Source: an uncultured Chloroflexia bacterium (GTDB taxonomy: Bacteria; Chloroflexota; Limnocylindria; Limnocylindrales; CSP1-4). From it: DNA of 64,000 nucleotides. The position numbers were made by a program, and so were the translations under genes. Location of the stretch: assembly GCA_963713975.1 (NCBI GenBank), contig OY970218.1:2176001-2240000 (forward strand), written 5' to 3'. Under the pieces are notes generated by a model, which was not told the DNA's origin, did not search any database, and worked only from the letters and a program-made list of their open reading frames with translations. Numbering within the stretch: position 1 is the stretch's first letter; each line of letters begins with the position of its first letter. Shown in pieces: positions 3,018 to 51,010 of this stretch.

Positions 3018-3070
3018 CGTCGTGAATGGTATGGCGTGTGAGGAACGCGATGGGCGGTACAGTTGGAAGC

Positions 3071-3505: not shown

Positions 3506-3545
3506 CCGGGATCCGACGCCAGGCTCCAGGGAGACTTCTCGTCAC

Positions 3546-36129: not shown

Positions 36130-36143
36130 ACGTCCCCGCTGGC

Positions 36144-36173
36144 CTTGTGCGTCAAGGACGGTTGGTAAGTCCT
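36144..36173 (+). repeat. Left TIR of element A
   Basis: CTTGTGCGTCAAGGACGGTTGGTAAGTCCT is the reverse complement of 38879-38908. Confidence 0.93.
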
Positions 36174-36225
36174 GCCCCGTCCGTGCCATAGAACCTGTCG
36201 CAGCGGTCGGGCACGCTCCGTGTCG

Positions 36226-38163
36226 ATGGACGTGGCGAGCACAGGACTGGGCAGGACGGGACGACCGAGGCTCGTCGTCGCCAACCGCCCGACGGCGTGC
36301 TCGAAGGGACACAAGGGCAGCATCACGCTGTGGGGTAGGCGCGACTGGACGAGCGCGCCCTACCGCCGCCAGCGGTTCCGGTGCGTGCCCGCCGACGGCT
36401 CGGGTCCGCACACGTTCTCGCTCGGACGCCGCCGCCCGAGTGACGCGCACGGAGCGGGCGAGGAGTGCCTGACCTGCGACGTGAAGCCGGGCGTCGCCCA
36501 GGGGCCGATCTCGCCGCCGGACCACCTCCACACGGCGGTCGAGATCGCGCGCCTGCTCCAGCTTGTCGCGGAGGGGACCTCGCTGCGGAAGGCCAGCCGC
36601 ACGATCCGGCTCGAAGCACACCGCTACGTCGAGGATGCCCACGGGTTCCGGCACACGAGCCGCCAGCACACGCTCGCCGCCCGCTACCTGGACCTGTTCG
36701 GCACCGCGATCGATAAGCATCTCGCGCCGACCCGGTGCCCCCGGATCCTGATCCTCGATTCCAAGCCGCTCAACCTGCGGGCCTACGGCGCGGACGACCT
36801 CGACCCGGCGTGGAACCGCGAGGAGCGCGGCGGCGCGGTCCTGATCGCGGTCGGCGGCGACGACCCCAAGCAGGCGATGCTGCCGTGGCGGATCGGACTC
36901 GCCCCCGACGAGACAGGGCGCTCGTGGTTCGACTTCCTCGACGAGATCGACCCGGACGGCCCCGGACCCGAGTGGGTGATCGCGGACGGCGCGGGCGCGA
37001 TCGCCAACGCCGTGCAGCGAAGGTGGCCCAATGCCAACTTCTACTCGTGCGAGTTCCACCTGCGCAGGCTGATCAAGGAGCACGCGCGCAGCGACGGCAT
37101 CGACCCCGAGCACGCTGGCCACGCTGACCTCTTCCGCAAGGCCCAGTGGTCGAACCACAACTGGGACGCACTCCGGGCGTTCGCCGTCGCACGGCAGGCG
37201 GTCGCGCTCGACGGCTGGTGCCGCACCAACGACGCGCTGATCCGCCAGCAGGTCGGGCTCCACCGCCAGTTCTTCGGGTTCCCCCGCAGCAACGCCGCCG
37301 CCGAGCGGATCCTCGACTGGATCGACCGCCGGTTCGGGAAGCGCCGGCGCTACTCGCTCCGCAACGCAGGCCGACTCCAGCTCGTGCTCGCGCTCGTCCG
37401 CGCCTACCACGCGGGCCAGGCCGACCTCGCCACCTTCGCCGGCATCGTCAAGGCGACGATGCGCGACCTGCGGCCCGACCAGCACTTCGCCTGGACCTCA
37501 CGGCACGACCCCCGCGGCTCGCTGTGCTCGATCGGCCAGCTCATCGTCGATGCCCACGACCGGGCCGCGAAGGGCAAGGCGACCTACGACGCGGCGGCGA
37601 AGGCGCGCTCGGTAATCGCCAATGTCGCCGCTCTCAACGCGTCGCTCGCGGAGATCGGCCTGCCGCCGATGGAGGCGACCGTCGCGCCCGGTCGCGCGAC
37701 GGCCTCGGTCAAGGTGAAGGGCAAGATGCTGACCGACTTCCCGCTCGTCCTGCGCGACTGGGACAGCGTGGCGAACAACCGACTCGCGTCGTCGGTGAAG
37801 GCGGGTTCGGGCTACAAGGCGCACTGGAAGTGCCACAGGTGCGGGCACACCTGGGAGGCCGAGGTCGCCCAGCGCACGGCGCGCCAGACGCGCTGCCAGC
37901 GGTGCTCGACCGAGCGGGCCGACGGCCTCAACGCGCTCGCGTCCATCCGGCCAGACCTCGTGCGCGAGTGGGACACGGCGGCGAACGCGCCGCTGCGCCC
38001 GGACAGGATCAAGGCGACCTACGATAAGGCGGTGCGCTGGATCTGCCCCGACGACCCCGAGCACCCCGGCTACAAGATGTCGCCCTTCACGCGGGCGAAG
38101 CTGCCGGTCGGCTGCCCCCTGTGCCGGCGACTGGCGAGGAATCGGCTCAAACGCGCTGCCTGA
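36226..38163 (+). CDS. Mutator/IS256-like DDE transposase fused to two C-terminal DUF4379-like zinc ribbons
   Basis: N-terminal Cys/His finger and HTH (EGTSLRKASR); LILD, VIADG, CEFH, SNAAAE; C-terminal WKCHRCGHTW..RCQRC and WICPDDPEH..GCPLC. Confidence 0.85.
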   Translation: MDVASTGLGRTGRPRLVVANRPTACSKGHKGSITLWGRRDWTSAPYRRQRFRCVPADGSGPHTFSLGRRRPSDAHGAGEECLTCDVKPGVAQGPISPPDHLHTAVEIARLLQLVAEGTSLRKASRTIRLEAHRYVEDAHGFRHTSRQHTLAARYLDLFGTAIDKHLAPTRCPRILILDSKPLNLRAYGADDLDPAWNREERGGAVLIAVGGDDPKQAMLPWRIGLAPDETGRSWFDFLDEIDPDGPGPEWVIADGAGAIANAVQRRWPNANFYSCEFHLRRLIKEHARSDGIDPEHAGHADLFRKAQWSNHNWDALRAFAVARQAVALDGWCRTNDALIRQQVGLHRQFFGFPRSNAAAERILDWIDRRFGKRRRYSLRNAGRLQLVLALVRAYHAGQADLATFAGIVKATMRDLRPDQHFAWTSRHDPRGSLCSIGQLIVDAHDRAAKGKATYDAAAKARSVIANVAALNASLAEIGLPPMEATVAPGRATASVKVKGKMLTDFPLVLRDWDSVANNRLASSVKAGSGYKAHWKCHRCGHTWEAEVAQRTARQTRCQRCSTERADGLNALASIRPDLVREWDTAANAPLRPDRIKATYDKAVRWICPDDPEHPGYKMSPFTRAKLPVGCPLCRRLARNRLKRAA

Positions 38164-38818
38164 TCCGGGCGCGCGCACCGAGCCGTGCGAACACCGCTCC
38201 GAACGTGACAACGAATGACAGGACGAGGGCGATGGCGGGCTGCGGCCCTCCACTGTCCGGCTGTTGGGGAGTGGTCGCAGTGTCAGGAACCGGACTTCGC
38301 TCCACCAGTGCGACGATCTCGGACAGGGCCGTTGCCCTCCGGGCCGCCGCCGGCCAGAACGCCCGGTCGCGGCCCGACTGAAGGGCCTCCGCAGCGAAGG
38401 ACCAGGCAACCCCTTCCCGACGCCAGATGAGGATCTGCCCGAACAGGCTCGGGTTCTCGACGAGATCAAGCCGGTCGAGCGCGATAAAGACCCGATCGCC
38501 CTCTCGCAGGCCCGCAGGCCGGAGGAAGCTACAGCCGACATCCCACCCGTTGAGTCGCAACTCGTCCCGGACGCGGCCACGGTATGTCTTCTCGACGGTG
38601 AGTTCGACGTGCCAGTCGAACGGTGCCGAGTCGGCCATCGGCGGATCCACTGTCCGGGAGACCTCGGCGACTGTCGCTATGAAGGCGACCTTGACCGGAA
38701 TGCGATCGTCGCGGCTCGGCGGAGGGGGCCAGCACTCGGCGCGAACCGGCGTGATGGCGAAGAGCAGGAGCGCGACGGCGCAGCCCCCAGAACCGATGAT
38801 GCTCCGGCGCGACGGCAC
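38147..38818 (-). CDS. Passenger A: secreted TIMP/NTR-like protein with C-terminal PDTAT sorting signal
   Basis: RBS GGGAGG and GTG; signal peptide ending PVRA|EC; second Cys (VGCSF); VPDTAT + TM + basic tail. Confidence 0.75.
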   Translation of the reverse strand: MPSRRSIIGSGGCAVALLLFAITPVRAECWPPPPSRDDRIPVKVAFIATVAEVSRTVDPPMADSAPFDWHVELTVEKTYRGRVRDELRLNGWDVGCSFLRPAGLREGDRVFIALDRLDLVENPSLFGQILIWRREGVAWSFAAEALQSGRDRAFWPAAARRATALSEIVALVERSPVPDTATTPQQPDSGGPQPAIALVLSFVVTFGAVFARLGARARIRQRV

Positions 38819-38878
38819 CAAGATCCTCCCTGCGATCGATCGCTCGTGAGACGCTACGGGTCTGCGCCGGGTGACGCA

Positions 38879-38908
38879 AGGACTTACCAACCGTCCTTGA
38901 CGCACAAG
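38879..38908 (-). repeat. Right TIR of element A
   Basis: AGGACTTACCAACCGTCCTTGACGCACAAG. Confidence 0.93.
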
Positions 38909-38950
38909 CCGCTGGCGCGATCGTCCGTCCGCTCTCGGTGGACGAGCCGG

Positions 38951-39511
38951 CTAGCGAGCCACGCGGTAGCGCAGGTAGACGACTCTCGAGCTGAACGTGT
39001 GCGTCTCGAGGAGGTCGAGATCGACCCGGCGCTCGTCCCGTGGAAAGTACGGGATGCCACCGCCAAGCAGCACGGGGTGGACCCGCGGCCGGTACTCGTC
39101 GATCAGGCCCAACGCCGCCGCCTAGACGGCGAGCGTAGCGCCGCCGATCGCGATGTCGCCATCGCCCGGCTCGGCTCTCAGCCGCTCGATCTCCTCCGCC
39201 AGGCCGCCGGTCGCCAGCCGGGCATTGCCCTCGACCGCCGACAACGTCCTGGAGAACACGACCTTTGGGAGGGGGTTCCACAGCGCGGCCCACTCGCGCT
39301 CCGCGTCGTCCAGGGATGGGTTGTGGTCGTCTTCCCAGTACAGCATCGTCTCGTACAGCCGACGTCCCATCAGGTGGACGGAGACCTCTCGGAGTTCGTC
39401 GATGAAGGAGCGGAAGACTTCACCGTCGGGCACCGTCCAGTCGAAGCCGCCGTCCGGCCCGACGATGTAGCCGTCCAGCGAGACGCCTATCGAATAGGTC
39501 ACGCTGCGCAT
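38951..39511 (-). pseudogene. RibD C-terminal/DHFR-family protein with in-frame TAG at 39122-39124
   Basis: SLDGYI, MGRRLYE, PKVVFSRTL, IGGATLA; the frame continues after TAG as AAALGLIDEY..HPVLLGGG.PYF..YLRY*. Confidence 0.82.
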
Positions 39512-39657
39512 CAGGAGTCCTCCTCAGCATCGGGTTCGAGAGTATGACCGCCCGACGCCGCAGGACGCATCGCGGGCTCCCGGTCATGGGCGATGGGCGC
39601 CGACTGCGACGGTGATCATCGCCGACCGCACGGCGCCGGGCGGGTATCATCGCCGCG

Positions 39658-40932
39658 ATGAGCGATCGAGGGCTCCCCCCCGAGGGCGCACCGGCCTGTC
39701 CGTTCGTCGCGTTCGAGGACGACCGCGACGGCCGGGCCACGGCTCCCGACCATCGGCACCGCTGCTTCGCGGAGGCGAAGCCCGCCCCCCGCGCGCTGGC
39801 CCACCAGGAGGCCTACTGCCTCTCGTCGGCGTTTCCGGTGTGCCCCACGTTCCAGGACTGGGCCCGACGCGAGGCAGCCGCCGCGCGGCCCACAGCCGCG
39901 GCGCCGGTCGCAGCCGTCGTGGCCGCTCCGCGTGACGAGCCGCGCGACGACTACCCGCCGGTCGACCCGGTGCCGCCGGCGCAGGTCGAGCCGCCCCGTG
40001 CCGCTCCCGTGGCGTCATCGGCGATCGTCCCGCCCCGTCGCAACCCGCCACGGGACTGGGCCGCACCGCCGCCATGGGCAGGAGACGAGGCGCCAGCTGC
40101 GGACGTGCCGAACGTGGCAGCCTATCCGCCCTCCTACGAGCCCGGCGCCGTGCCGGTGCAGGCCGCCGACCCCGACGACTGGGGCAGTGCCTCGCGCGGC
40201 CTCGCGGGCAGTGCCGCCGATCGCCTCGCGGGTCCGGACCCCGATCTGCCGGTCGCCTATCCGGCCGACGACCCGGACGGCGATCCCGACGCCTGGGCCG
40301 CCGGGGCCGCGGCGGCCGGCGGGTACGCGGCCTCGAGCTCGGCCACCCGCGACACTCCTCCGCCCCGCCGTGCCCAGCCTTCGCGCCGGGACCAGCGCAG
40401 GTCTGCCGGGTCTGCGTCCCGCAGCGAGGACGCGAAGACCCCGTCGCAGGATCCGTCGGAGCTGTTTGGCCCCGCTTGGGAGCGTCCCCAGCGCTACGAC
40501 GCCTACCCCTCGCTGCGCACCCGCATCGGCCTGCCGCCGATGCGCGGGATCCCGAGGTTGGGGATCTACGCCCTGATCCTGGCCACGGCGGCGCTGTTCC
40601 TGTTCTTCGTCGGGCCGTCGCTCCTGGGGATCAGCCAGGGCGACCAGGGTGCTGCAGGCGCATCCCCGACGCCCGCCGCCTCCGCCGACGCGACGGACTC
40701 GCCGCTCCCGACGGAGCCCCCGGCGCCCACGGCCCAGGTCTATATCGTCGTCAAGGGCGACACGATGTCGAAGATCGCCAAGAAGAACGGCGTGACGGTC
40801 GAGGAGCTCCTGGCCGCCAACAAGCAGATCAAGAACCCGAACAAGATCAAGATCGGGGATGAGATCACGATCCCGGTGCCCGTCCAGGACGACACCGGTG
40901 ACGGGACGGTGGAGGACTCGCCGGTTCCCTGA
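39658..40932 (+). CDS. Membrane protein with N-terminal Cys/His motif and C-terminal LysM domain
   Basis: CPFV..HRC..HQEAYCL..CP; TM helix; YIVVKGDTMSKIA..LLAAN..IKIGDEITIP. Confidence 0.85.
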   Translation: MSDRGLPPEGAPACPFVAFEDDRDGRATAPDHRHRCFAEAKPAPRALAHQEAYCLSSAFPVCPTFQDWARREAAAARPTAAAPVAAVVAAPRDEPRDDYPPVDPVPPAQVEPPRAAPVASSAIVPPRRNPPRDWAAPPPWAGDEAPAADVPNVAAYPPSYEPGAVPVQAADPDDWGSASRGLAGSAADRLAGPDPDLPVAYPADDPDGDPDAWAAGAAAAGGYAASSSATRDTPPPRRAQPSRRDQRRSAGSASRSEDAKTPSQDPSELFGPAWERPQRYDAYPSLRTRIGLPPMRGIPRLGIYALILATAALFLFFVGPSLLGISQGDQGAAGASPTPAASADATDSPLPTEPPAPTAQVYIVVKGDTMSKIAKKNGVTVEELLAANKQIKNPNKIKIGDEITIPVPVQDDTGDGTVEDSPVP

Positions 40933-40982
40933 CGAGCGCGGCCGCGAGCGGGTGTCCCGGTGCCCTCAGCCCGGGGGGATCG

Positions 40983-41318
40983 TCAGCGCGAGAACGGGGT
41001 CAGGTTGATCGAGGTGATCTTGCCCGCCTCGACCCGGAACTGGGCGTCGAGGTGCTGGCTGGGGGCGCCCGGACGGATCACGACCAGGTCCGCCTGGTAG
41101 GTGTTCCCCATGTCGCGGACGTCGCCCGGGATCATCTTGAGCCCCTTGTCCGCGCGCAGGAACCAGCCGCCGACCTGCTCGACACCGCGCAGGGTTCGAG
41201 CGTTGTCACCGACGTGGATGCGCATCTCCGTGCGCTCGTCCATCAGGGTCACGGCGCCCGCGACGTCACCCGCGTTGAGGCGCTCGAAGAAGATCTCCAT
41301 GGTGTCGGTGGCTCCCAT
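40983..41318 (-). CDS. NTF2/SnoaL-like protein
   Basis: FFERLNAGDV..LRGVEQV..FRVEAGKI pattern. Confidence 0.7.
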   Translation of the reverse strand: MGATDTMEIFFERLNAGDVAGAVTLMDERTEMRIHVGDNARTLRGVEQVGGWFLRADKGLKMIPGDVRDMGNTYQADLVVIRPGAPSQHLDAQFRVEAGKITSINLTPFSR

Positions 41319-41342
41319 GGCCTCGAGTGTACCCCGCGGGCC

Positions 41343-43034
41343 TCAGAAGCCGCCGCCCGAGCCCCCGCCGCCCCCGCCGGACCCGCCACCCGAGAACCCT
41401 CCGCCCGACCCGGACGACGAGGGCGAGTTACCGATGGTCCCCAGCGCCGCCATCATCCCGCCGAAGTTGGGGATGGGCGACGAGCTCATCATCCCCGGCG
41501 CCCAGCCGCCGCCGGAATCCGACCCACCCCAGGTGCCACTCGAGCTGCTCCAGTACCACATCGGCAGGTAGGCGCCGCCCGAGCGCCCCGACGTGAGGTC
41601 CTCGACCGACCGCTGCAGGACGCCCTCGACCTCCTCCTGGAGCCCCAGGGCAACGCCCCAGACGACCGCGTCGTCGGGGTCCTCGATCAACGGGATCGCG
41701 GACGCGGTCACGACCTCGCCCATCGAGCGAGACATCGCCATCGTCTTCTCGAGCGTGCGCCGGTAGGCCTCGAGCATCGCGCGGATGACGGCTCCGTCCT
41801 TCGTGCGCGCCGGCATCGCGCTCGAGATCACGAACAGCGCCACGGCCGAGACGATCAGCGCCAGGCCCACGAGGACGAAGCCGCTCGACGGCAGGTTGGC
41901 ACCCGCCACGAGGCTCGCGATTCCTGCCGCCAGCACCAGCACGGCACGGATGACCCAGCGGCCGGTCACCTTTCCGGGAGGCTCCCGGAACCAGCCCTGG
42001 GCCACGAGGTGTGCCTCCAGGGCGGAGTTGAACCGGCCCACGTCCGATCCCAGCTCCAGGATCTCCTTGGGGGCGATGTAGCCCGGACCGCCGCCGATGT
42101 CCCGGAGACGTTCGAGCAGGAACGTGGTGGCCGGATCCATCAGTCGGCGGCGGACCCGCTCGAGGCGCGCCTGCTCGACCGGATCCGGCGGAGCGGCGTC
42201 GATCGTGTGGATCCCGATGTCCGGATCCCCGCCGAACAGCGATTCGTTCGGCTCCGCGCGGAAGCCGATCCGGCCACGGGCCGCGAGGTCCAGGCTCGCT
42301 GCGGTCAAGGCGCGCCGGGTGACGCTTCCGTCACGGACCGCAGCGCCGGCGGCCGGGGTGAGGCCGGGCGGTGGGGCAGGCATGTGGATGGATGGGTCGT
42401 CGAGGTAGACGGGATCCCGTCCGGATCGGTACCAGCTGTGCAGCGCCAGGCCGACGACGACGAGCAGGATGATCGGCGCCAGGACCAGGCCCAGCACGGC
42501 ATTGAGGACCCGGGAGCCAGAGACCCCCGAGATCTTGTCCATCGCGGCCAGCAGGGCCCCGTTCATGTCGCAGTCGCGCAGCTTGGGCAGCATGTCGTTC
42601 TCGAAGATCCGCTGGCGGTCGTCGTTCGACAGCCAGGTCTCCCGGAAGCCGGGTCCGGCGTAGAGCTGCACCTGGCCATGGCACGGGTCAGCCTGTCCGA
42701 GGTCGAACAGGATCACGAGGCCATCGTCGACGCCTGCCCGGCCCACGCCCCACTGGTCCAGGAGAGCCTGGGCGCGCGACTCAGCAGCCGAGGTGCCCTC
42801 GCCGTCCGGGACGAGCTGCGTGTACACGACGATCTCGGCGCCGGTGTCCGCCTCGAACGTGTCGATGGCGGCCTCGACGCGGGCGATGGTCTCGGCATCG
42901 AGCACCCCGGCCGTGTCGTAGACGGCCTGGTCGTTGACAGGGTCCGGGAATGGCGGGCCGGCCGCGGCGGCGATGGCAGGCAGGAGCCCGATTGCCGCGA
43001 CGGCGGCGGCGAGCGCGAGACGGAGGGACCGCAT
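41343..43034 (-). CDS. TPM domain + DUF2207-like membrane protein with Gly/Ser tail
   Basis: VYDTAGVL..WGVGRAGVDDG; LDLAARG; GGGFSGGGSGGGGGG tail. Confidence 0.82.
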   Translation of the reverse strand: MRSLRLALAAAVAAIGLLPAIAAAAGPPFPDPVNDQAVYDTAGVLDAETIARVEAAIDTFEADTGAEIVVYTQLVPDGEGTSAAESRAQALLDQWGVGRAGVDDGLVILFDLGQADPCHGQVQLYAGPGFRETWLSNDDRQRIFENDMLPKLRDCDMNGALLAAMDKISGVSGSRVLNAVLGLVLAPIILLVVVGLALHSWYRSGRDPVYLDDPSIHMPAPPPGLTPAAGAAVRDGSVTRRALTAASLDLAARGRIGFRAEPNESLFGGDPDIGIHTIDAAPPDPVEQARLERVRRRLMDPATTFLLERLRDIGGGPGYIAPKEILELGSDVGRFNSALEAHLVAQGWFREPPGKVTGRWVIRAVLVLAAGIASLVAGANLPSSGFVLVGLALIVSAVALFVISSAMPARTKDGAVIRAMLEAYRRTLEKTMAMSRSMGEVVTASAIPLIEDPDDAVVWGVALGLQEEVEGVLQRSVEDLTSGRSGGAYLPMWYWSSSSGTWGGSDSGGGWAPGMMSSSPIPNFGGMMAALGTIGNSPSSSGSGGGFSGGGSGGGGGGSGGGF

Positions 43035-43060
43035 CAGCGCATCCTACCCGCCCCGGCGGC

Positions 43061-45019: not shown

Positions 45020-45031
45020 GACGCGGACAGC

Positions 45032-46312
45032 CTAGCGGAGGGAGGGGCGCCCACGCCGTCGTCCGAGGATGAGCCGCCCATCCGGCTCGAGCAGCACCTG
45101 CGGCGCAGCGGGGCGACCGTTGTAGGTCGAGGCCATCGACGCGGCATAGGCCCCGGTCCCGGCGATCGCGAGGAGATCGCCCCGGCGCAGCGCCGGGAGG
45201 TCGTGGCGGCCGAGCGTGTCGGTGCTCTCGCAGATCGGGCCGTCGACACGGGTCGGTACGAGGGAGAACGTGGGTGCCCCGCCGTTGAAGACGGCCGGCA
45301 GCCCGAGCGTGGTCAACGCGACGATCCGGTGCTCCGCCCCGTAGAGGGCCGGCCGGATCAGCTCCGTCATGCCCGCGTCGATCACGACCACCCGCTCGGC
45401 GTCGCCGCGCTCCCGCACGTGGAGCACCGAGGCGACGATCCACCCGGCCGATGCAACGAGGAACCGGCCCGGTTCCACGGCCAGGCGCGCGGGCCGGCGC
45501 TCGTGCGGGATCGCCTCCAGGAGGCCCGCCGCCTCACGGGCGAACCTGGCGGGCGTGGGGACGGTGCCCGGGTCACCGACCGGGAAGCCGCCGCCGACGT
45601 CCAGCGTGTCGAAGGCGGGCTGGCCGGCTCCCAGCAGGGCGCACAGGGCCAACCCGCGCCGGGCGGCGTCACGCCATGCGTCCACGGCGCCGAGCTGGGA
45701 CCCGACGTGGAGGTGGATGCCGCGCGCCACCACCGCCCCGCCTGGCACCAGCGACGCGGCGGCCGCGGTGAGCTCCGTCTCCGTCATGCCGAACTTGGAC
45801 GAGCTCCGGCCCACGGCCAGACCCGCCTGGGTCTCCGGGTTCACGTCCGGGTTCAGGCGCAGCAGCACCTCGAGCGCCGGTCGGTCGGGTCGTCCGAGGC
45901 CCGCACGGGCCGCCATTGCTCCGAGCGCGTCAAGCTCCTCGGGGCTCTCGACCGCTATCCACCGCAGCGGATCCCCGGAGGCCGCGGCACGCACGGCAGC
46001 CCGAAGGTCGGCTGTGGACTTGCCGATCCCCTCCAGCGTGATCCGCTCGTTGGGGATGCCTGCCGCCTTCGCGGCCGCCCACTCGCCGGTGGACACTGCA
46101 TTGGCGTCCAGCCCCAACGAGCCGAGCCGCCCCACGATCGCCGGCACATCGTTGGCCTTGAGCGAGAACGCGCGCAGCCAGGGGTCCGGGAACGCGGCCT
46201 GCAACTCCCGGGCAGCGGCCTCGAGCGCGGCGACTGACGTGACGTGGACCGGCGTCCCGAACCGGCGGGCCGCCCGCAGCAGCGCCTCCCCGTGGACCTC
46301 CGTGCCGTCCAC
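45032..46312 (-). CDS. lysA: Diaminopimelate decarboxylase
   Basis: SLKAN, SKFG, HLHVGSQ, DVGGG, EPGR, GPICESTD, GAY..YN. Confidence 0.88.
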   Translation of the reverse strand: MDGTEVHGEALLRAARRFGTPVHVTSVAALEAAARELQAAFPDPWLRAFSLKANDVPAIVGRLGSLGLDANAVSTGEWAAAKAAGIPNERITLEGIGKSTADLRAAVRAAASGDPLRWIAVESPEELDALGAMAARAGLGRPDRPALEVLLRLNPDVNPETQAGLAVGRSSSKFGMTETELTAAAASLVPGGAVVARGIHLHVGSQLGAVDAWRDAARRGLALCALLGAGQPAFDTLDVGGGFPVGDPGTVPTPARFAREAAGLLEAIPHERRPARLAVEPGRFLVASAGWIVASVLHVRERGDAERVVVIDAGMTELIRPALYGAEHRIVALTTLGLPAVFNGGAPTFSLVPTRVDGPICESTDTLGRHDLPALRRGDLLAIAGTGAYAASMASTYNGRPAAPQVLLEPDGRLILGRRRGRPSLR

Positions 46313-46317
46313 GCGAA

Positions 46318-46713
46318 TCAGTCGCGGACTGCCAGCCCGACCACCGCCGTGATCAGCGAGAGCACCGCCGAGGCCACCACGGCCCCGACGAGCGTGTCCG
46401 CCGTGAACCCCTCGGCCGGCCAGCCGCCCACCGTGAAGTCCAGCCCCGCGAAGCTCTGGGCCACCCACGCGATCCCCAGGAGCAGGGCGGCATTGATCAC
46501 GAAGCCGGACAGGCCCATCGTCATCAGCGAGATGGGGAACGAGAGGATCTTGACCAGCGGCTTGATGACGGCGTTCACGACGCCCACCCCGACCGCCAGC
46601 AGGACCAGCTGCGGCGTGTCGCCCACGAACTGGATCATCGACTCCGGCAGGATCTGCAGCAGGAGCACGAACGCGATCGCGCCCGCGGCCACCGCGGTGA
46701 TGAAGCCCTTCAC
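46318..46713 (-). CDS. Phage holin family 4 (DUF360) membrane protein
   Basis: VNAVIKPLVKILSFPISLMTMGL..INA. Confidence 0.85.
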   Translation of the reverse strand: MKGFITAVAAGAIAFVLLLQILPESMIQFVGDTPQLVLLAVGVGVVNAVIKPLVKILSFPISLMTMGLSGFVINAALLLGIAWVAQSFAGLDFTVGGWPAEGFTADTLVGAVVASAVLSLITAVVGLAVRD

Positions 46714-46714
46714 G

Positions 46715-48361
46715 TCAGTCCTCCGAGCGATGGACGATGCGGCCGCCGATGACGGTCAGGCGCACGCCCGTTCCGATGATGGTAGAGGGACCCGTTGCGA
46801 GGAGGTCCCGGTCAAGGACCACCAGGTCTGCGTCCAGCCCCGGGACCACCCGTCCACGCCGGTGCTCGGCGTAGGCCGCGAAGGCGCCCCCGGCCGTGTA
46901 CGCCTCCAGCGCGTCCGCGAGCGGCAGGCGCTCGGCCGGCAGCCAGCCACCCTCGGGCAGTCCGTCCACGGTCTGGCGGTTGACGGCATTGTTGAGGGCG
47001 ATGAACGGGTCGTAGGGGACCACGGGCCAGTCCGACCCGAAGGCGAGGTGCCCGCCGGCGCGACGGATCGAGGTCCATGCCCAGGCCCGGCTCGCCCGCT
47101 CGGGTCCGATGTTCCCGGCCCAGACCGAGATCTGGTTGGGGCTCGGGTCGCCATGGTAGGGCTGCATGGAGGCCATGACGCCCAGCGAGGCGAAGCGGCC
47201 GATATCGGCGGGATCGATGGTCTCGATGTGCTCCACCCGGTGGCGTCGGGCGTGGGTCCCGGGTGCCGCGCCGTCGCCGTGCGGGTCGCCCGTCCAGGGT
47301 CCGTTGACCGTCGCGGCATGCTCGAAGGCGTCGAGCGCCAGGCGCACGCCCCTGTCGCCGATCGCATGGAGCTCGACCTGCCAGCCGCGGCGGTCGGCCT
47401 CCGTGACGAACGCGTCCAGGACCTCCGGCTCCCACACCGGCAGGCCGCGACTCGTGTCGTCCTCGTAGGGCGCCAGCATCGAGGCGGTCCTGGCCTCGAT
47501 CACGCCGTCCACGAAGCCCTTGAGGATCCCCGCATCGAGGCGGTCGCCGCCCCGGAGCGGGAACGCGGCGGCCTCGTAGGCGTCCAGCCTGTCGCGCCAT
47601 TCGGCCAGGGTCTGTCCGGGCTCCATGATCAGGGCGCCGCGAAAGCGCAGGTCGAGCTCTCCGTCGTCGCGAACACGCCCCCAGAACGCGAGCTCGTCGG
47701 GCGTCAGCCAGGCGTCCTGGGCCGCCGTCAGGCCCAGCACATGCATCCCGGCCTGGGCGCGACGGACCGAGGCGCGGTCATCGTCCTCGGTGGGGACTGG
47801 AATGTGGCGCTCGACGAGGAGCTGGGCGTCCTCCTTGAGGGCGCCGGTCGGCTCGCCGTCCAGGTCCCGGACGATGACGCCGTTGGGCGGGTCGGGGGTG
47901 GTCCGGTCGATGCCGGCGATCCGCAGGGCCGCCGAGTTTGCCCACCCGCTGTGGCCGTCATAGCAGCCCATGTAGGCCGGGCGATCCGGGACCGCAGCGT
48001 CCAGCTGGGCCGCCGTCGGCAGGCCACCGGGGAACGGGGCGTAGAGCCAGCCACGCCCGAGGACCCACGGCAGGTCCGGGTTGGCGGCCGCGTGCTCCCG
48101 GATGCGCTGCCCGATGGCCTCCAGGCTCTGCAGCGGGTAGAGCTGGGCATCGGCCAACTGGCGCGCGCCGCTCCGGACATGGATGTGGGCGTCGTCGAAC
48201 CCCGGCATGACGAGGCTACCGCGGGCATCGACGATCTCTCCGGCGGTGCCGGTCTCCTCCTGCCGGCCCACGGCCAGGATCCGCCCACCGCGGGCCCTGA
48301 CGGTGTCCGCCCCTTCGGCGCCGAGGACGCGCCCGTTGATGATCGTCAATTCGGTCGTCAT
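46715..48361 (-). CDS. Amidohydrolase 3 (YtcJ-like)
   Basis: PGFDDAHIH, HAIGD, RVEH, GSDWP. Confidence 0.9.
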   Translation of the reverse strand: MTTELTIINGRVLGAEGADTVRARGGRILAVGRQEETGTAGEIVDARGSLVMPGFDDAHIHVRSGARQLADAQLYPLQSLEAIGQRIREHAAANPDLPWVLGRGWLYAPFPGGLPTAAQLDAAVPDRPAYMGCYDGHSGWANSAALRIAGIDRTTPDPPNGVIVRDLDGEPTGALKEDAQLLVERHIPVPTEDDDRASVRRAQAGMHVLGLTAAQDAWLTPDELAFWGRVRDDGELDLRFRGALIMEPGQTLAEWRDRLDAYEAAAFPLRGGDRLDAGILKGFVDGVIEARTASMLAPYEDDTSRGLPVWEPEVLDAFVTEADRRGWQVELHAIGDRGVRLALDAFEHAATVNGPWTGDPHGDGAAPGTHARRHRVEHIETIDPADIGRFASLGVMASMQPYHGDPSPNQISVWAGNIGPERASRAWAWTSIRRAGGHLAFGSDWPVVPYDPFIALNNAVNRQTVDGLPEGGWLPAERLPLADALEAYTAGGAFAAYAEHRRGRVVPGLDADLVVLDRDLLATGPSTIIGTGVRLTVIGGRIVHRSED

Positions 48362-48367
48362 GGCGTG

Positions 48368-48373
48368 ATCGTA
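48368..48373 (-). promoter_or_regulatory. Putative -10 box of leaderless amidohydrolase transcript
   Basis: TACGAT 6 nt upstream of ATG; no SD sequence. Confidence 0.5.
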
Positions 48374-48412
48374 CGCGACCGGATCGGCGGTGCAGGGGCG
48401 CGTCACCGGCGC

Positions 48413-48460
48413 TGAAGTCTCGCGTCAGTAGGGGTTTACCGAACGCACCACTCGGGACCT
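48413..48460 (+). repeat. TIR of element B (passenger side)
   Basis: TGAAGTCTCGCGTCAGTAGGGGTTTACCGAACGCACCACTCGGGACCT is the reverse complement of 50725-50772. Confidence 0.94.
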
Positions 48461-48568
48461 TCGTGCCTCCAGGTGTCCCCTGTGGGGACAGCTTCGAGCG
48501 GCCGCGTAGCATGACGAGCCGCTGACGCGTCCACCACGACACTGGCGAGCCACACGAAGGGGGCGCAC

Positions 48569-49182
48569 TTGGACACGAACCGCTCCGATCCTTGGCGCCG
48601 CTTCATCACCGGCGTCCTCGCAAGTGCCGTCGCCTTTGGCGCGATCGCGGTCAGCCCGCTTCCTGTTGCGGCCGAGTGTGATGGCCCCGTCCCATCGTTC
48701 CGAGACGCCCTCGCCACCGCCAAGCGCGTGGTCATCGGAGATGTGATCGCCGTGCGCGACGGCGGCCTCGCCCGGGCTGCGACTAACAATGGATGGTCGA
48801 GCCGCTTCACGCTCCGAGTCCGTTACACCCCCGTCGGCGACGCCGGGCGAACGATGGAGATCAACGATCTGCCGACGCAGCCCTGCGCAGGCGTCATCCA
48901 GGCTCGCGAAGGCGATCGGATCGCGCTCGCGTTTGACGCCACCGACTTCAGCCCGGCGATCCAGGTCAACACGGTCGCCTGGATCCGAGGCACGCCGTGG
49001 GATCCGTCGGCGTTGAGAGGATCACCGTCGCCGAGGTCTTCCGGCTGCTCCGGCTGACGCCGCCCGACACGGCGACGCTCCCGGAGCCACCAGCGCAGGA
49101 GCTTCCCGTCGGCCTGATCGTCGCCCTGGCAGGATTGCTCGCCGGAAGCCTTGCCTGGCGTCGGCGCCTACTCGCGAAGTAG
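48569..49182 (+). pseudogene. Passenger B: secreted TIMP/NTR-like protein with PDTAT sorting signal, apparently frameshifted near 48999-49001
   Basis: Signal peptide PVAA|EC; REGDR shared with passenger A; PPDTAT-TM-RRRLLAK lies in another frame and is joined by adding one G to the GGG run. Confidence 0.72.
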
Positions 49183-49237
49183 TGCGAGGCTCGCCCGGAG
49201 CTTCACCGTCCCTCTCGTGTGCGCGGTCAGCAAGGCG

Positions 49238-50683
49238 CTACGGGCGCGTTGACCCGATGGGCGGTCGTCGCGGGGGTCGCTGAAGTGCCTTCTGCCCAGT
49301 GGCGCGCTCCCGAGCTCGGCGCTTGTGCTGTCTGACAAGGGCCGCCGCTCGTATCGGCCCCCGCCTGACGTTGACGGCTCGGATGGCGTCGTAGAGCGAC
49401 GAGGAACCGTGATCGTCGAGCGAGCGCCGCGGAAGTCGAGGCCGGCCCTTGTTGCGTAGAAGGTCGCGGCGGATGATGTCGCGGACGCTCCGCTCGGTCG
49501 CAAGCCCGGCCATCTCGAGGCCCATGAGGTCGAACACGAGCTCGAGCCGGGCTCGGTTGCGGAACACGAGCCTGCGGTCCCCAAGCCGATGGACGACCTC
49601 GCGGAGAACGGTCTCGAGCCCGCCGATCGAGAGCGGCCGGTTCGGATCCCGGACCCGCCACTGGCGTTCCATGAGCCGGCGGTTCGAGCTCATCCAGGCG
49701 AGCGTCTGCCTCGCACCGGCGGCGTGCATGTCGGCCTCGAGCTGCTCCCACCGCGCCCGGTCGCCGATCGCTCCCGGCATCGCCCGCCAGAGCGCGCTCC
49801 TGCGGTCGAAGCCGTCGGCCGCGAGCCGATTCTCGGCGAGCATCCGCAGGTGGGCCTCGCAGACGTAGACCGTCGCCTTCGGCCACGCCGTCTTGATGGC
49901 TGACACGACCGCCTTGCCCTGGTCGCACACCACCCACGATGGCGCGTTCGGCCGTGACTTGAGCACCGCGAGCCACTCCACCGCGTCCCCGCCGCCGCGC
50001 GGAGAGAGCGCCGCAGCGCGGCCCGAGCCGCGCCCGTTCGGATACCCATACACGCCGAGGACGCTGACCGCGCCACGAAACGAGGTCTTCTCGCCGTCGT
50101 CGGCCACGTCCGTTACCACCACATCGAAGGTGGTCTCGTCGAGCGCGACACTGTCGGGCCAGGTCGGCGGGATCAGGGCGTCGCGGACGATCGTCCCGAA
50201 CATCGCGAGCTGGTCCGAGGCAAGCTGCCCGTGCGGACTCGCGCGAAGCATCCCCCACGAGGTCGGCGTGAGGCGGTCGGCGCTCTCGCGCGCATCACGG
50301 CTGGCGCGGCGCATGCTGATCCCCTGCGCGACCTGGACGACGGCGTGCGCGGCTTCCCGAACGGTGAAGGACTGGCGCCGTGTCGTCTGCGGCCCCTCGT
50401 GCCGGTCGAGCGTGTGCTCGCACTCCTCGCAGAAGTGCGGCGTGCCCGCGCCCGACGTGCGATGCCGGCGGGCGAGCCGCTCGATGAATGGGTGCGGCTT
50501 CTCGCCGTTCGCGTGGAGCGGCGGCCGCTTGCCCGTTCTCGGATCTATCCGGGGCACACAACGAAATCGCGGCCGCTCGTGGTGCTGGGTGCGCCCGTAG
50601 AAGCCGTCGAGCCACACGTCGCCCTGGTGCTTCGGGCACTCCGGTCGTCGGGCTGTCTGAAATCCTCGGCTTCGGCATCTCAC
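49238..50683 (-). CDS. Mutator/IS256-like DDE transposase (start uncertain; possible 5' frameshift at 50660-50662)
   Basis: CPKH..RFRCVP..CEEC; VALDE, VVCDQG, CEAH, SIGGLE; colinear with transposase A. Confidence 0.83.
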   Translation of the reverse strand: MRCRSRGFQTARRPECPKHQGDVWLDGFYGRTQHHERPRFRCVPRIDPRTGKRPPLHANGEKPHPFIERLARRHRTSGAGTPHFCEECEHTLDRHEGPQTTRRQSFTVREAAHAVVQVAQGISMRRASRDARESADRLTPTSWGMLRASPHGQLASDQLAMFGTIVRDALIPPTWPDSVALDETTFDVVVTDVADDGEKTSFRGAVSVLGVYGYPNGRGSGRAAALSPRGGGDAVEWLAVLKSRPNAPSWVVCDQGKAVVSAIKTAWPKATVYVCEAHLRMLAENRLAADGFDRRSALWRAMPGAIGDRARWEQLEADMHAAGARQTLAWMSSNRRLMERQWRVRDPNRPLSIGGLETVLREVVHRLGDRRLVFRNRARLELVFDLMGLEMAGLATERSVRDIIRRDLLRNKGRPRLPRRSLDDHGSSSLYDAIRAVNVRRGPIRAAALVRQHKRRARERATGQKALQRPPRRPPIGSTRP

Positions 50684-50724
50684 TGGGGTTGTCGGCCATC
50701 CGAGTGTCAGGTCGGATGGCACAG

Positions 50725-50772
50725 AGGTCCCGAGTGGTGCGTTCGGTAAACCCCTACTGACGCGAGACTTCA
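50725..50772 (-). repeat. TIR of element B (transposase 5' side)
   Basis: AGGTCCCGAGTGGTGCGTTCGGTAAACCCCTACTGACGCGAGACTTCA. Confidence 0.94.
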
Positions 50773-51010
50773 ACCGGCGCGTCACCGGCGCGCCACCGTG
50801 GGTCACCGTGTGGCGTGCGCACGATATCTGGTTGCATGCGCCGGGGACGTGCGGGGGAAGCACGTACATTGCCATTTCGGGGCGGTGCCAGCGTGCTGTG
50901 CTGTCGTGACCATGTCCGGGACGCACGGCCGGGACAGATGACCACGGAAACCGTGCGTCGGACGCACGCCTGTCGCGCCGTGGCAGCGGACCCGCGGCCT
51001 GAACGACGCC

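What the first reader, a model, noticed from the sequence alone, without database searches (positions are those of the whole stretch)
36136..50780. A family of Mutator/IS256-like transposons that each carry a convergent TIMP-like, PDTAT-anchored surface protein gene
Seen: two complete elements 10 kb apart (36144-38908, 48413-50772). They have different TIRs (30 vs 48 bp, sharing only a GCGTCA core) and different 8-bp TSDs, but the same layout: TIR-transposase><passenger-TIR. The transposases are divergent homologs (RFRCVP, CxxC, D..D..CxxH..E, RNxxRLxL). The passengers are divergent homologs too (signal peptide|EC, second Cys, REGDR, PDTAT+TM+basic tail). Known: DDE with CxxH and 8-9 bp TSDs defines IS256/Mutator-type elements, and some carry passenger genes. 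Inference: the same cargo family in two deeply diverged elements suggests a stable transposase-surface protein partnership rather than chance capture, for example a mobile way of spreading and diversifying cell-surface proteins. I do not recognise this combination as described.
Basis: partly seen in the sequence, partly recalled or inferred. Interest (0 to 1): 0.85.

Follow-up and report, generated by a model that had tools for sequence, protein, structure and literature searches.

The report
Insertion sequences with a swappable cargo gene
Two real jumping-gene elements in this soil bacterium each carry a related cell-surface protein gene, but their relatives elsewhere carry other genes, so this is a swappable cargo slot and not a fixed partnership.

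Summary
El1 (36144-38908) and El2 (48413-50772) are bounded by terminal inverted repeats (TIRs) and 8-bp target-site duplications (TSDs). Each holds a Mutator/IS256-superfamily transposase convergent with a homologous secreted protein gene. El2 has a second, intact copy elsewhere in the genome with its own TSD, so transposase and cargo move as one unit. In the window copy both genes carry 1-bp indels.

The proposed stable partnership is not supported. In other Limnocylindria genomes, 0 of 29 transposase loci hold this passenger and 0 of 28 passenger loci hold this transposase. Fifteen TIR-bounded relatives carry lipoproteins, membrane proteins, DUF4279 (Pfam domain of unknown function), an aminoglycoside-phosphotransferase-type (APH) kinase, or nothing. 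Even at 77-88% transposase DNA identity, homology stops near the transposase 3' end and resumes only at the right TIR.

The passenger folds like an NTR/TIMP-type OB barrel (Z 5.5-6.5). It ends in a sortase-like signal (P-D-T-A-T, membrane helix, basic tail), and the genome has three sortase genes.

A third element outside the window, of IS1595 type, has the same layout with a distant relative of the same fold. This genome has therefore captured this surface-protein type repeatedly.

Verdict: a new variant of passenger-carrying insertion sequences, of moderate interest.

The parts
36136..36143 (.). El1 target-site duplication, left copy (CCGCTGGC)
   Evidence: Read; exact 8-bp match.
36144..36173 (+). 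El1 left terminal inverted repeat (30 nt)
   Evidence: pair I6, 100% complementary. The same TIR type is found in L047 and L110 in other genomes.
36220..38163 (+). El1 transposase, 647 aa: Mutator/IS256-superfamily DDE core plus two C-terminal DUF4379 zinc ribbons
   Evidence: ORF. MULE E 2.1e-5 (25.3 bits, cut-off 27.6) and DUF4379 E 2.2e-24. IS1249 27 bits (cut-off 300) and IS256 23.4 bits (cut-off 150). Conserved D..D..CExH..E columns.
38147..38818 (-). El1 passenger, 223 aa: signal peptide, Cys-containing beta-barrel domain, VPDTAT motif, TM helix, basic tail
   Evidence: ORF. The 223-aa form is P0157. It belongs to profile A2. TM predictions at both ends.
38879..38908 (-). El1 right terminal inverted repeat
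   Evidence: pair I6.
38909..38916 (.). El1 target-site duplication, right copy
39122..39511 (-). RibD_C-domain gene just outside El1. Its homologs lie inside El1-type ends in other genomes.
   Evidence: Pfam RibD_C E 1.1e-7. Cassette forms are L111 and L112. An X3 contig joins the transposase end to window 38944.
48405..48412 (.). El2 target-site duplication (ACCGGCGC), passenger side
48413..48467 (+). El2 terminal inverted repeat on the passenger side (55 nt, 96%)
   Evidence: pair I1.
48569..49182 (+). El2 passenger. It is frameshifted in this copy by a 1-bp deletion near 49002. The intact 204-aa form is in the second copy.
   Evidence: Two ORFs; alignment to L002; intact ORF L002 2993-3607; structure model.
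49238..50699 (-). El2 transposase. This copy has a 1-bp insertion near 50660, after codon 13. The intact 486-aa form is in the second copy.
   Evidence: MULE E 0.0088. IS1249 E 1.2e-4.
50718..50772 (-). El2 terminal inverted repeat on the transposase side
   Evidence: pair I1.
50773..50780 (.). El2 target-site duplication, second copy

Best explanation
El1 and El2 are autonomous insertion sequences of an uncurated clade of the prokaryotic Mutator/IS256 superfamily. This clade has one cargo position, between the 3' end of the transposase gene and the right terminal inverted repeat. The position is usually filled by a single small gene that reads back toward the transposase. The transposase recognises the two TIRs and moves everything between them, making 8-bp target duplications, so the cargo is copied with the element. 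Co-mobility is shown by the two El2 copies. The copy-out-paste-in route through a circle is inferred from what is known of IS256 and its relatives. The cargo is not part of the transposition machinery and is replaced often. In this genome both elements happen to carry members of one family of secreted NTR/TIMP-like beta-barrel proteins. These proteins end in a sortase-type sorting signal, which probably fixes them to the cell wall. The two cargo genes were acquired separately from a pool of chromosomal paralogs. A third, IS1595-type element in the same genome has done the same with a distant relative. This suggests that this lineage favours mobile, copy-number-variable versions of this surface protein. 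How new cargo gets in front of an intact right TIR is not shown.
For: Real, co-mobile units. TIRs and 8-bp TSDs are present. A second El2 copy at another locus is identical from TIR to TIR except for two 1-bp indels, and it has a different TSD.

Superfamily. Of 19 aligned transposases, 12 match Pfam MULE, 7 match Transposase_mut, 17 match NCBIfam IS1249 and 8 match IS256, all below curated cut-offs. The D, D, C-E-x-H and E columns are conserved. The 8-bp duplications fit the 8-9 bp reported for prokaryotic Mutator-like elements (PMC3942029, section 11).

Variable cargo. I examined 15 TIR-bounded relatives in other genomes: L005, L006, L008-L012, L046-L049, L055-L057 and L110. Ten have an exact 8-bp TSD, 3 have a 7-bp TSD and 2 have none. 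Thirteen hold cargo and 2 (L009, L056) hold none. In 12 of the 13, the cargo converges on the transposase. Six have lipobox proteins, 3 have TM proteins, and 4 have neither; the last group includes DUF4279 (E 1.9e-18) and an APH kinase (E 2.4e-13). None carries the PDTAT family. The passenger HMM hit 0 of 9 elements and 0 of 29 loci.

Cassette boundaries. El1 matches L047 over positions 1-1993 (77%) and again only at the right TIR. El2 matches L005 and L006 over positions 1-1392 and again only at the right TIR. The G406 element has 88% identical transposase DNA but about 2 kb of different cargo.

Passenger mostly chromosomal. The passenger profile hits 27 of 401 class genomes and the transposase profile hits 32 of 401. 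By my reading of the two lists, only G000, G337 and G072 appear in both. The transposase HMM hit 0 of 28 genome loci and 0 of 21 metagenome loci that hold the passenger. Of those loci, 25 and 9 respectively have at least 1 kb downstream of the passenger. On the tree, pass1 and pass2 fall in the two deepest clades, with non-IS paralogs of the same genome between them.

Surface anchoring. The tail has a motif, a TM helix and basic residues. Three sortase genes score above the Pfam cut-off. Other proteins in the genome carry similar tails, and one lies beside a sortase gene.

Fold. The AF2 (AlphaFold2) model has pLDDT 85. The top 11 VIA matches are all NTR/TIMP modules, with Z from 4.7 to 6.5.

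Third element. El3 is shown. Its cargo model again matches C3 NTR (E 2.2e-4), PCOLCE NTR and TIMP-2.
Against: The contexts of the closest passenger homologs (P0001-P0012 and P0158-P0161, 71-88% identical, mostly on 1-6 kb contigs) could not be fetched. Some of them may be El1- or El2-like elements carrying this cargo.

Three metagenome loci with one shared sequence (L074-L076) keep an El2-like right end next to the passenger, with 80% identity over El2 positions 1586-2359. The El2-passenger link is therefore older than this genome.

Most comparison genomes are fragmented MAGs (metagenome-assembled genomes), in which repeats assemble poorly, so IS-borne copies may be under-counted. In addition, 12 of the 21 metagenome loci have less than 1 kb downstream of the passenger.

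All independent cargo-bearing element types in this genome (3 of 3) carry this protein type, against 0 of 13 elsewhere. 'Random cargo' does not explain that.

The enrichment for envelope proteins (9 of 13) rests on a small, related sample and on motif reading by script and eye.

The fold match is middling (Z below 8), and Pfam TIMP does not hit.

Sortase processing and expression are untested.
Confidence: 0.7

Rival explanations
1. One reading: an ancient, stable partnership. An ancestral element acquired the surface-protein gene once, and transposase and passenger have co-diverged since. This would make a dedicated vehicle for spreading and diversifying this surface protein.
For: Transposase identity (30%) and passenger identity (32%) are similar, as co-divergence would predict. 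The layout is the same in both elements. L074-L076 show that the El2 right end and the passenger have stayed linked down to 80% DNA identity.
Against: Relatives that lie between El1 and El2, or close to either, carry unrelated cargo or none: 15 of 15 TIR-bounded elements, some with 77-88% transposase DNA identity. The passenger was found at 0 of 29 transposase loci and 0 of 9. The transposase was found at 0 of 28 plus 0 of 21 passenger loci. The tree needs at least two separate origins of the IS-borne state. An unrelated IS1595-type element carries the same kind of cargo.
Confidence: 0.06
2. The identity of the cargo is secondary. What the element gains is a convergent transcription unit at its right end, which damps or terminates transposase expression by transcriptional interference or antisense RNA. 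Any small expressed gene would serve, and envelope genes are simply well tolerated.
For: In 12 of 13 cargo-bearing relatives, and in all three element types in this genome, the cargo converges on the transposase. The 3' ends overlap by 17 bp in El1 and lie 55 bp apart in El2. Cargo families are unrelated to each other.
Against: Two elements have no cargo (L009, L056). One has co-directional cargo (L057). No promoter or terminator consensus was found, although those scans are weak for this phylum. No RNA data are available. This idea does not explain why this genome captured the same protein type three times.
Confidence: 0.12
3. The slot carries protective envelope proteins. The NTR/TIMP-like passengers would be cell-wall-anchored inhibitors of secreted metalloproteases from competitors or predators. 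The small lipoproteins and membrane proteins in related elements would be analogous immunity-type factors. On this reading the elements are mobile defence cassettes.
For: NTR/TIMP modules are the top structural matches for two independent models. In the N-TIMP-3 and TIMP-1 alignments, the model's conserved Cys37 aligns with TIMP residue 1. One paralog has Cys directly after a V-S-A signal-peptide end. Nine of 13 cargo sets are small envelope proteins. The passenger's distribution is patchy and accessory: 27 of 401 genomes.
Against: In the El2 family the predicted mature N-terminus is Glu-Cys, not Cys. This is my reading of the A-A-E-C site. From recall, an extra N-terminal residue abolishes TIMP inhibition. 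Only two conserved Cys are present. Pfam TIMP gives no hit, and Z is below 8. No partner protease was identified. No defence-library search was run.
Confidence: 0.1
4. Artefact: the passengers are ordinary chromosomal genes that merely lie beside insertion sequences, and the outer 'TIR' is a chance repeat or a mis-set boundary.
For: In L092 a passenger homolog lies 58 bp outside an IS21 element. In L005 a weak family member lies just outside the right TIR. Adjacency without inclusion therefore does occur.
Against: The two El2 copies share everything from TIR to TIR, passenger included, and nothing beyond, and each has its own 8-bp TSD. El1's 30-nt TIR is perfect and also bounds the passenger. 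The same TIR type bounds other cargo in L047 and L110.
Confidence: 0.02

Closest known systems
Prokaryotic Mutator-like transposon families (p-MULT: IS256, ISH6, ISLre2/TnGBS, ISAzba1/ISMich2/ISKra4), Guerillot et al. 2014, PMC3942029 (section 11 read)
   Same: DDE transposase related to MULE/IS256, terminal inverted repeats, and 8-9 bp target duplications. The paper notes that some members (12 ISAzba1, 4 ISKra4) carry one to three extra ORFs and that p-MULT 4 occurs in Chloroflexi.
   Different: No member tested here reaches any curated IS model. This holds for the 19 aligned proteins and for 10 sampled representatives. El2's 55-nt TIR exceeds the 18-39 bp range given. El2 begins with T, not the conserved terminal C. 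Here the extra ORF is the rule (13 of 15 relatives), sits in one position, is convergent, and changes between close relatives. The paper's supplementary table S1 could not be opened, so I cannot exclude that related elements are listed there.
Transporter IS (tIS): insertion sequences carrying passenger genes unrelated to transposition (passages in PMC3129680, and PMC7986276)
   Same: A single transposase plus passenger gene(s) inside one pair of inverted repeats, moving as a unit.
   Different: In the passages I read, tIS are described as scattered members of several IS families. Here the passenger position is a family-wide feature with rapid turnover, and the cargo is biased toward small envelope proteins.
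Pack-MULEs of plants and bacterial mobile insertion cassettes (MICs). Pack-MULEs are recalled, not read; MICs are mentioned in PMC3129680.
   Same: Mutator-type ends enclosing captured host genes. The transposase-less cassettes L111 and L112, with El1-type ends around a RibD_C gene, resemble MICs and Pack-MULEs.
   Different: The elements in the window are autonomous. They carry whole, apparently functional genes, not fragments. The capture mechanism is unknown.
TIMP / netrin-like (NTR) module
   Same: An OB-type five-stranded barrel with flanking helices and a conserved Cys at the start of the domain paired with a second Cys. NTR/TIMP chains are the best structural matches for two models.
   Different: There is no sequence-level match to Pfam TIMP. 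It has two Cys instead of the three disulfides of N-TIMP (recalled). The predicted mature end is Glu-Cys in the El2 family. It is a bacterial, wall-anchored protein.
Sortase substrates with LPXTG-type sorting signals
   Same: A tripartite C-terminus (short motif, hydrophobic helix, basic tail) in a genome that has sortase genes.
   Different: The motif is P-D/E-T-A/S-T, or P-x-T-D-T in paralogs, and not LPXTG. No NCBIfam or Pfam anchor model reaches its cut-off; the best is GVDTG_CTERM at 14 bits against a cut-off of 29.

Membership tests
IS256 family / prokaryotic Mutator superfamily | Transposase reaches the curated family model (NCBIfam IS256 or IS1249; Pfam Transposase_mut or MULE) | tested here: not met
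   tnp1 scores: IS1249 27 bits (cut-off 300), IS256 23.4 bits (cut-off 150), MULE 25.3 bits (cut-off 27.6), Transposase_mut 18.7 bits (cut-off 21). Across 19 members, 17 hit IS1249 and 12 hit MULE, all sub-threshold. This shows relationship at superfamily level only.
IS256 family / prokaryotic Mutator superfamily | D..D..E triad with a C/D-x-x-H motif after the second D (the pattern is recalled from the Mutator literature) | tested here: met
   Alignment A3, in El2 transposase numbering: D187 and D259 nearly invariant, C280 invariant, E281 and H283 nearly invariant, E362 nearly invariant. The D259-E362 spacing is 103 residues. No catalytic role was tested.
IS256 family / prokaryotic Mutator superfamily | Terminal inverted repeats of 18-39 bp with a terminal C, and 8-9 bp target duplications (PMC3942029) | tested here: inconclusive
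   8-bp TSDs are found at El1, at both El2 copies and at 10 of 15 relatives. El1's TIR is 30 nt and starts with C. El2's TIR is 55 nt and starts with T.
IS256 family / prokaryotic Mutator superfamily | Transposition through a circular intermediate with abutted ends | not testable with these tools
   The only runs holding the region were DNA contigs with small shares. No circle junction could be sought.
Transporter IS (tIS) | Passenger gene unrelated to transposition lies inside the IS ends and moves with it | tested here: met
   The two El2 copies are identical from TIR to TIR, passenger included, and have different TSDs. The passenger has a signal peptide and a wall or membrane anchor.
TIMP / NTR module | Sequence membership (Pfam PF00965 TIMP or NTR models) | tested here: not met
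   No Pfam family matched either passenger at E up to 1. The Atlas lead is only 0.87, to a cluster in which 13% of members carry PF00965.
TIMP / NTR module | Fold: OB barrel with N-terminal Cys-anchored segment | tested here: inconclusive
   VIA matches: NtA Z 6.5 (93 aligned, rmsd 4.1), PCOLCE NTR Z 6.5, N-TIMP-3 Z 5.5 with model residue 37 aligned to chain residue 1. The top 11 matches are all NTR/TIMP. Foldseek gives E 0.08. The El3 cargo model matches C3 NTR at E 2.2e-4. Z below 8 may reflect only a common arrangement.
TIMP / NTR module | Free alpha-amino Cys1 as the first mature residue (needed for metalloprotease inhibition; recalled) | tested here: inconclusive
   No signal-peptidase predictor was run. 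By eye, the A-A-E-C site in the El2 family and R-A-E-C in El1 would leave Glu-Cys. One paralog has V-S-A-C.
Sortase-anchored surface proteins | C-terminal motif + hydrophobic helix + basic tail, with a sortase encoded in the genome | tested here: met
   The tail is conserved in alignment A2: P166 is invariant, followed by DT(A/S)T, a TM helix and RR. Three PF04203 matches score above the cut-off. A protein with an LPRTST tail lies next to one of the sortase genes.
Sortase-anchored surface proteins | Canonical LPXTG motif or curated anchor model; cleavage and wall linkage | tested here: not met
   No LPXTG model hit. The only weak hits were PGF-CTERM at 14.4 bits (cut-off 18.8) and GVDTG_CTERM at 14 bits (cut-off 29). 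Cleavage is not testable here.
IS1595 family (for El3, outside the window) | DDE_Tnp_IS1595 domain, TIRs, 8-bp TSD (the TSD length is recalled as typical) | tested here: met
   PF12762 E 2.5e-18, 67 bits (cut-off 27), on a truncated 172-aa ORF. The 32-nt TIR is 97% complementary. The TSD is CGACCGCT.

The most novel reading that the evidence does not exclude
An undescribed, sizeable clade of bacterial Mutator-like insertion sequences works as a one-slot gene shuttle, a bacterial counterpart of Pack-MULEs. It repeatedly picks up and exchanges small envelope-protein genes at its right end and spawns transposase-less cassettes. In this Limnocylindria genome, three different elements from two unrelated transposase superfamilies have each captured a sortase-anchored TIMP/NTR-like protein. 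That pattern points to selection for making this particular surface protein mobile and copy-number variable, perhaps as a wall-bound protease inhibitor.
Probability: 0.3. Interest if true: 0.6.

Novelty: new variant of a known kind. Interest (0 to 1): 0.45.

Why it matters
Insertion sequences are usually treated as carrying nothing but their transposase. Here a whole clade keeps a single, fast-changing cargo position. In the representative library the clade has 1700 clusters at E 1e-3 or better and 413 at 1e-30 or better, and none of the 10 sampled members matches a curated IS model. If the pattern holds across the clade, these elements are an overlooked route by which uncultured soil Chloroflexota shuffle surface and envelope proteins. 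Annotation pipelines would call both genes 'hypothetical'. The passenger itself is a candidate bacterial, wall-anchored TIMP/NTR-like protein with an unusual sortase-type signal. Both of those features can be tested directly at the bench.

Tried and rejected
Homology and context searches that gave nothing:
- A profile scan of genome contigs with the broad transposase alignment A3 failed because it had no conserved stretch. I re-sent it with the narrower alignment A4.
- tblastn of the El2 transposase against plasmids gave no match.
- hhalign of the passenger profile against the El3 cargo gave only 10% probability, E 0.003. Sequence homology of the El3 cargo to the family is therefore not established. 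Only the architecture and the predicted fold agree.
- The ESM Atlas gave scores of 0.88 or lower, which are leads only.
- The phylum-level search added just one genome outside the class.

Regulatory and expression evidence:
- Sigma-70 promoter and intrinsic-terminator scans of El1 and El2 found nothing.
- No RNA holder was listed for the El1 region, and seven DNA runs held only 5-7% of its words. Nothing can be said about expression.
- In the four runs laid, the passenger-1 region had almost no cover in X2-X4 and one 235-nt contig in X1. I treat the missing cover as uninformative. I use only the contigs that join across: 38139 to 38881 in X4, and 38100 plus 26 nt to 38944 in X3.

Empty sites:
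- Precise empty sites were sought in 15 same-genus genomes.
- Both elements sit in variable intergenic stretches, so no clean flank-TSD-flank junction was found.
- The nearest case is G408, where the left flank stops exactly at the El1 insertion point and the sequence resumes at window 39637 after 24 bp. G408 therefore lacks El1 and also the 728-bp RibD_C segment.

Other checks:
- The IS21 element beside the passenger homolog in L092 ends 58 bp before that gene, so it is not a further carrier.
- No TIRs flank the paralogs at G000:C1:103213-103806 and 2257313-2257903.

The contigs of the closest passenger and transposase homologs could therefore not be examined.
- Supplementary files of PMC3942029 were not opened.

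Literature: five searches listed no paper describing a Mutator/IS256-type IS clade with a variable envelope-protein cargo slot, or these elements in Chloroflexota. I saw only the listings, plus passages or one section of three papers, so this is not proof of absence.

Full report
WHAT IS THERE

The window is 71% G+C. It lies in a closed 3.62-Mb genome at G000:C1:2176001-2240000. Relatives of the genome are labelled Limnocylindria/Chloroflexota in public titles.

El1 spans 36144-38908. It has a perfect 30-nt terminal inverted repeat (TIR) and the 8-bp target-site duplication (TSD) CCGCTGGC on both sides. El2 spans 48413-50772. Its TIR is 55 nt and 96% complementary, and its 8-bp duplication is ACCGGCGC.

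Each element holds a long transposase ORF and a short ORF that converges on it. The transposases are 30% identical (E 1e-27). The short proteins are 32% identical (E 4e-6). The only corrections are the El2 TIR length and the fact that the window's El2 copy is damaged.

A genome-wide search found a second El2 at about 3.37 Mb. Aligned with the window copy, it is identical from TIR tip to TIR tip except for two single-base indels. It is flanked by a different 8-bp duplication, ACGAACGT. In that copy the transposase (486 aa) and passenger (204 aa) are intact. In the window copy one indel splits the passenger, and the other shifts the transposase frame after codon 13. This pair of copies is the strongest evidence that transposase and passenger transpose together. 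I cannot tell whether the two indels are decay or assembly errors.

THE TRANSPOSASE

Pfam and NCBIfam give only sub-threshold matches to MULE, Transposase_mut, IS1249 and IS256. The same holds for 19 aligned family members. El1's protein also has two C-terminal DUF4379 zinc ribbons.

The alignment shows conserved D, D, C-E-x-H and E columns, plus an N-terminal Cys/His-rich region that includes the R-F-R-C-V-P motif. A profile search of 1.84 billion representatives found 1700 clusters at E 1e-3 or better and 413 at 1e-30 or better. None of 10 sampled members reached a curated IS model.

The clade therefore belongs to the prokaryotic Mutator superfamily but is not filed under a named family. The 8-bp duplications agree with the 8-9 bp reported for that superfamily (PMC3942029, section 11). 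Within Chloroflexota the clade is concentrated in this class: 32 of 401 class genomes hit, against 9 of 401 phylum-sampled genomes, 8 of which are from the class.

THE PASSENGER

The intact El2 passenger has 105 homologs in the protein collection, all unnamed and without Pfam domains. El1's passenger has 9.

The family has these conserved features:
- a signal peptide ending A-A-E-C-D-G-P-x-P-S-F-R;
- a second conserved Cys (Q-P-C);
- G-D-R-I-A-L-A and A-W-I-R-G blocks;
- a short helix;
- a P-D-T-(A/S)-T motif, followed by a hydrophobic helix and Arg-rich tail.

An AlphaFold2 (AF2) model with mean pLDDT 85 shows a beta-barrel. Foldseek ranks TIMP-1, agrin NtA and the PCOLCE NTR domain first, but weakly, with E about 0.08. 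An all-against-representatives alignment puts NTR/TIMP modules in the first 11 places: NtA and PCOLCE NTR at Z 6.5, N-TIMP-3 at Z 5.5, and complement C345C domains at 4.7-5.4. Generic OB folds score 4.5 or below. In the TIMP alignments the conserved Cys37 falls on TIMP residue 1. These Z values are middling, so I call the fold 'NTR/TIMP-like' without claiming family membership or inhibitor function.

The tail has the three parts of a sortase signal. The genome encodes three sortases above the Pfam cut-off. Several unrelated proteins end in similar P-x-(T)-D/E-T tails, and one of them lies beside a sortase gene. Wall anchoring by a sortase is therefore a reasonable inference, but it is untested.

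IS THE PAIRING A PROPERTY OF THE ELEMENT FAMILY? NO.

Evidence from transposase-centred loci:
- Nine loci in genome contigs contain no passenger-profile hit inside the element. One weak hit lies just outside the L005 element.
- Twenty-nine further loci from 31 other class genomes have none.

Where both ends could be found, I delimited 15 elements by TIRs. Ten have exact 8-bp duplications, three have 7-bp duplications and two have none. Thirteen carry cargo and two carry none. In twelve of the thirteen, the cargo converges on the transposase. The cargo types are:
- lipobox proteins in 6 elements;
- membrane proteins in 3;
- proteins with neither feature in 4, including DUF4279 and an aminoglycoside-phosphotransferase-type (APH) kinase.

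DNA comparison shows the module boundaries. El1 and L047 are 77% identical over positions 1-1993 and again only at the right TIR. El2 and L005/L006 match over 1-1392 and again only at the right TIR. A same-genus element (G406) has 88% identical transposase DNA but about 2 kb of different cargo, comprising three ORFs, two of them lipoproteins. In metagenome contigs, El1-like transposase ends are joined to other sequence or straight to the right TIR.

Evidence from passenger-centred loci:
- Twenty-eight loci in 26 class genomes show no transposase hit, and 25 of them have at least 1 kb downstream.
- Twenty-one metagenome loci show no transposase hit, and 9 of them have at least 1 kb downstream.
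- Only G337 and G072, besides this genome, hit with both profiles.

On a tree of 154 family members, the two cargo genes sit in the two deepest clades, with this genome's own non-IS (insertion sequence) paralogs between them. That is a FastTree result with several long branches.

One exception matters. L074-L076 (one sequence seen in three samples) match El2 from the passenger stop codon to the tip of the right TIR at 80% identity, yet they have no transposase. The El2 right end and this passenger have therefore been linked for some time, and a fossil of that link survives elsewhere.

A motif scan of the genome found further proteins with this type of tail. One of them, at G000:C1:2504345-2505037, lies inside a third element, which I call El3. 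El3 spans 2504197-2505571 and is 1375 bp long, with 32-nt TIRs (97% complementary) and the 8-bp duplication CGACCGCT. Its gene is convergent with a truncated IS1595-type transposase (PF12762, E 2.5e-18).

Sequence similarity of the El3 cargo to the family is not significant. However, it has the same architecture. Its AF2 model (pLDDT 64) again matches the complement C3 NTR domain (E 2.2e-4), PCOLCE NTR and TIMP-2. Its two homologs in other genomes stand alone.

All three cargo-bearing element types in this genome therefore carry this kind of protein. None of the 13 cargo-bearing relatives elsewhere does. I read this as repeated capture in one lineage. I cannot say whether selection, a local mechanism or sampling explains it.

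HOW CARGO MIGHT ENTER

A RibD_C gene lies just outside El1's right TIR in this genome. In G053 and G403 its homolog lies inside El1-type ends without a transposase, forming a cassette of about 0.8-0.9 kb. In one metagenome contig it follows directly after an El1-like transposase end. These states look like stages of capture, cargo stacking and transposase loss. Their order is not established, and El1's own duplication is hard to fit into any single scenario. I leave this unexplained.

COMPARISON WITH WHAT IS KNOWN

Passenger-carrying insertion sequences (transporter IS, tIS) are a described category (passages in PMC3129680 and PMC7986276). Extra ORFs were reported in some prokaryotic Mutator-like elements (PMC3942029). 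What appears to be new is threefold:
- an uncurated clade in which a single convergent cargo position is the norm and turns over between close relatives;
- a lean toward small envelope proteins;
- the nature of the cargo in this genome.

My five literature searches listed nothing that describes this. I saw only the listings and a few passages, and the supplementary tables were closed.

VERDICT

The feature is real and the elements are well defined. The partnership hypothesis is refuted by its own stated test. The better description is a Mutator-type insertion sequence with an exchangeable cargo gene. I rate it a new variant of a known kind, interest 0.45. The tallies 27/401, 32/401, 0/28 and 0/29 include three genomes flagged unpublished (G296, G249, G159).

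Noticed in passing
G000:C1:2504197-2505571 (L119 698-2072), outside the window: A third TIR/TSD-bounded element, El3. It has 32-nt TIRs and the 8-bp duplication CGACCGCT. It holds a secreted protein with a G-M-P-D-T-A-T tail, convergent with a truncated IS1595-type transposase. It is single-copy in this genome, and the cargo model gives NTR/TIMP-like matches.
   Followed up: yes
L112 about 1451-2255 (G403:C34) and L111 about 1543-2421 (G053:C26); window 38922-39636: Transposase-less cassettes with El1-type ends enclose a 205-aa RibD_C gene. In this genome the homologous gene sits just outside El1's right TIR and lacks the cassette's right end. Relative to G408, the chromosome has gained El1 plus this 728-bp segment. 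How El1's duplication fits this history is unexplained.
   Followed up: partly
L074 2079-3369 (also L075, L076): A passenger homolog plus a solo El2-like right end (80% identical to El2), with no transposase. It is flanked by direct repeats of about 200 bp (77-84% identical) that encode LuxR-type helix-turn-helix fragments.
   Followed up: partly
L005 6383-7249 (+): A weak member of the passenger family (E 4.6e-8) lies about 65 bp outside the right TIR of an El2-like element whose own cargo is a lipoprotein.
   Followed up: no
window about 49002 and about 50660: The window copy of El2 differs from the other copy by exactly two single-base indels, one in each gene. One of them is in a T/A run. 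This may be decay of this copy or an assembly error.
   Followed up: partly
G000:C1:2547039-2547608 beside 2546269-2546631; also 1430814-1431548, 1431886-1437048, 1714527-1715681, 2485134-2486207, 2778587-2782204: Unrelated large and small proteins end in P-x-(T)-D/E-T-type motifs followed by a TM helix and basic tail. One, with an LPRTST tail, lies next to a sortase gene. This suggests a lineage-specific sortase signal.
   Followed up: partly
L057 2696-3592 (+), inside element 1336-3731: A related element in another class genome carries an APH-family phosphotransferase. It is the only co-directional cargo seen.
   Followed up: partly
L110 1008-4990 (G406:C4): An El1-like element of about 4 kb. 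Its transposase DNA is 88% identical to El1's. It has three stacked convergent cargo ORFs, two of them with lipoboxes.
   Followed up: partly
L092 372-2883 and 2941-3609: A complete IS21-type element (IstA and IstB, TIRs of about 56 nt) ends 58 bp before a passenger-family gene. This is adjacency, not carriage.
   Followed up: yes
G000:C1:2594118-2594612, 2595423-2595917, 2597017-2597511: Three ORFs of 165 aa with identical C-terminal sequence lie 1.3-1.6 kb apart on the minus strand. They may mark a tandem repeat or be spurious frames over a repeat.
   Followed up: no
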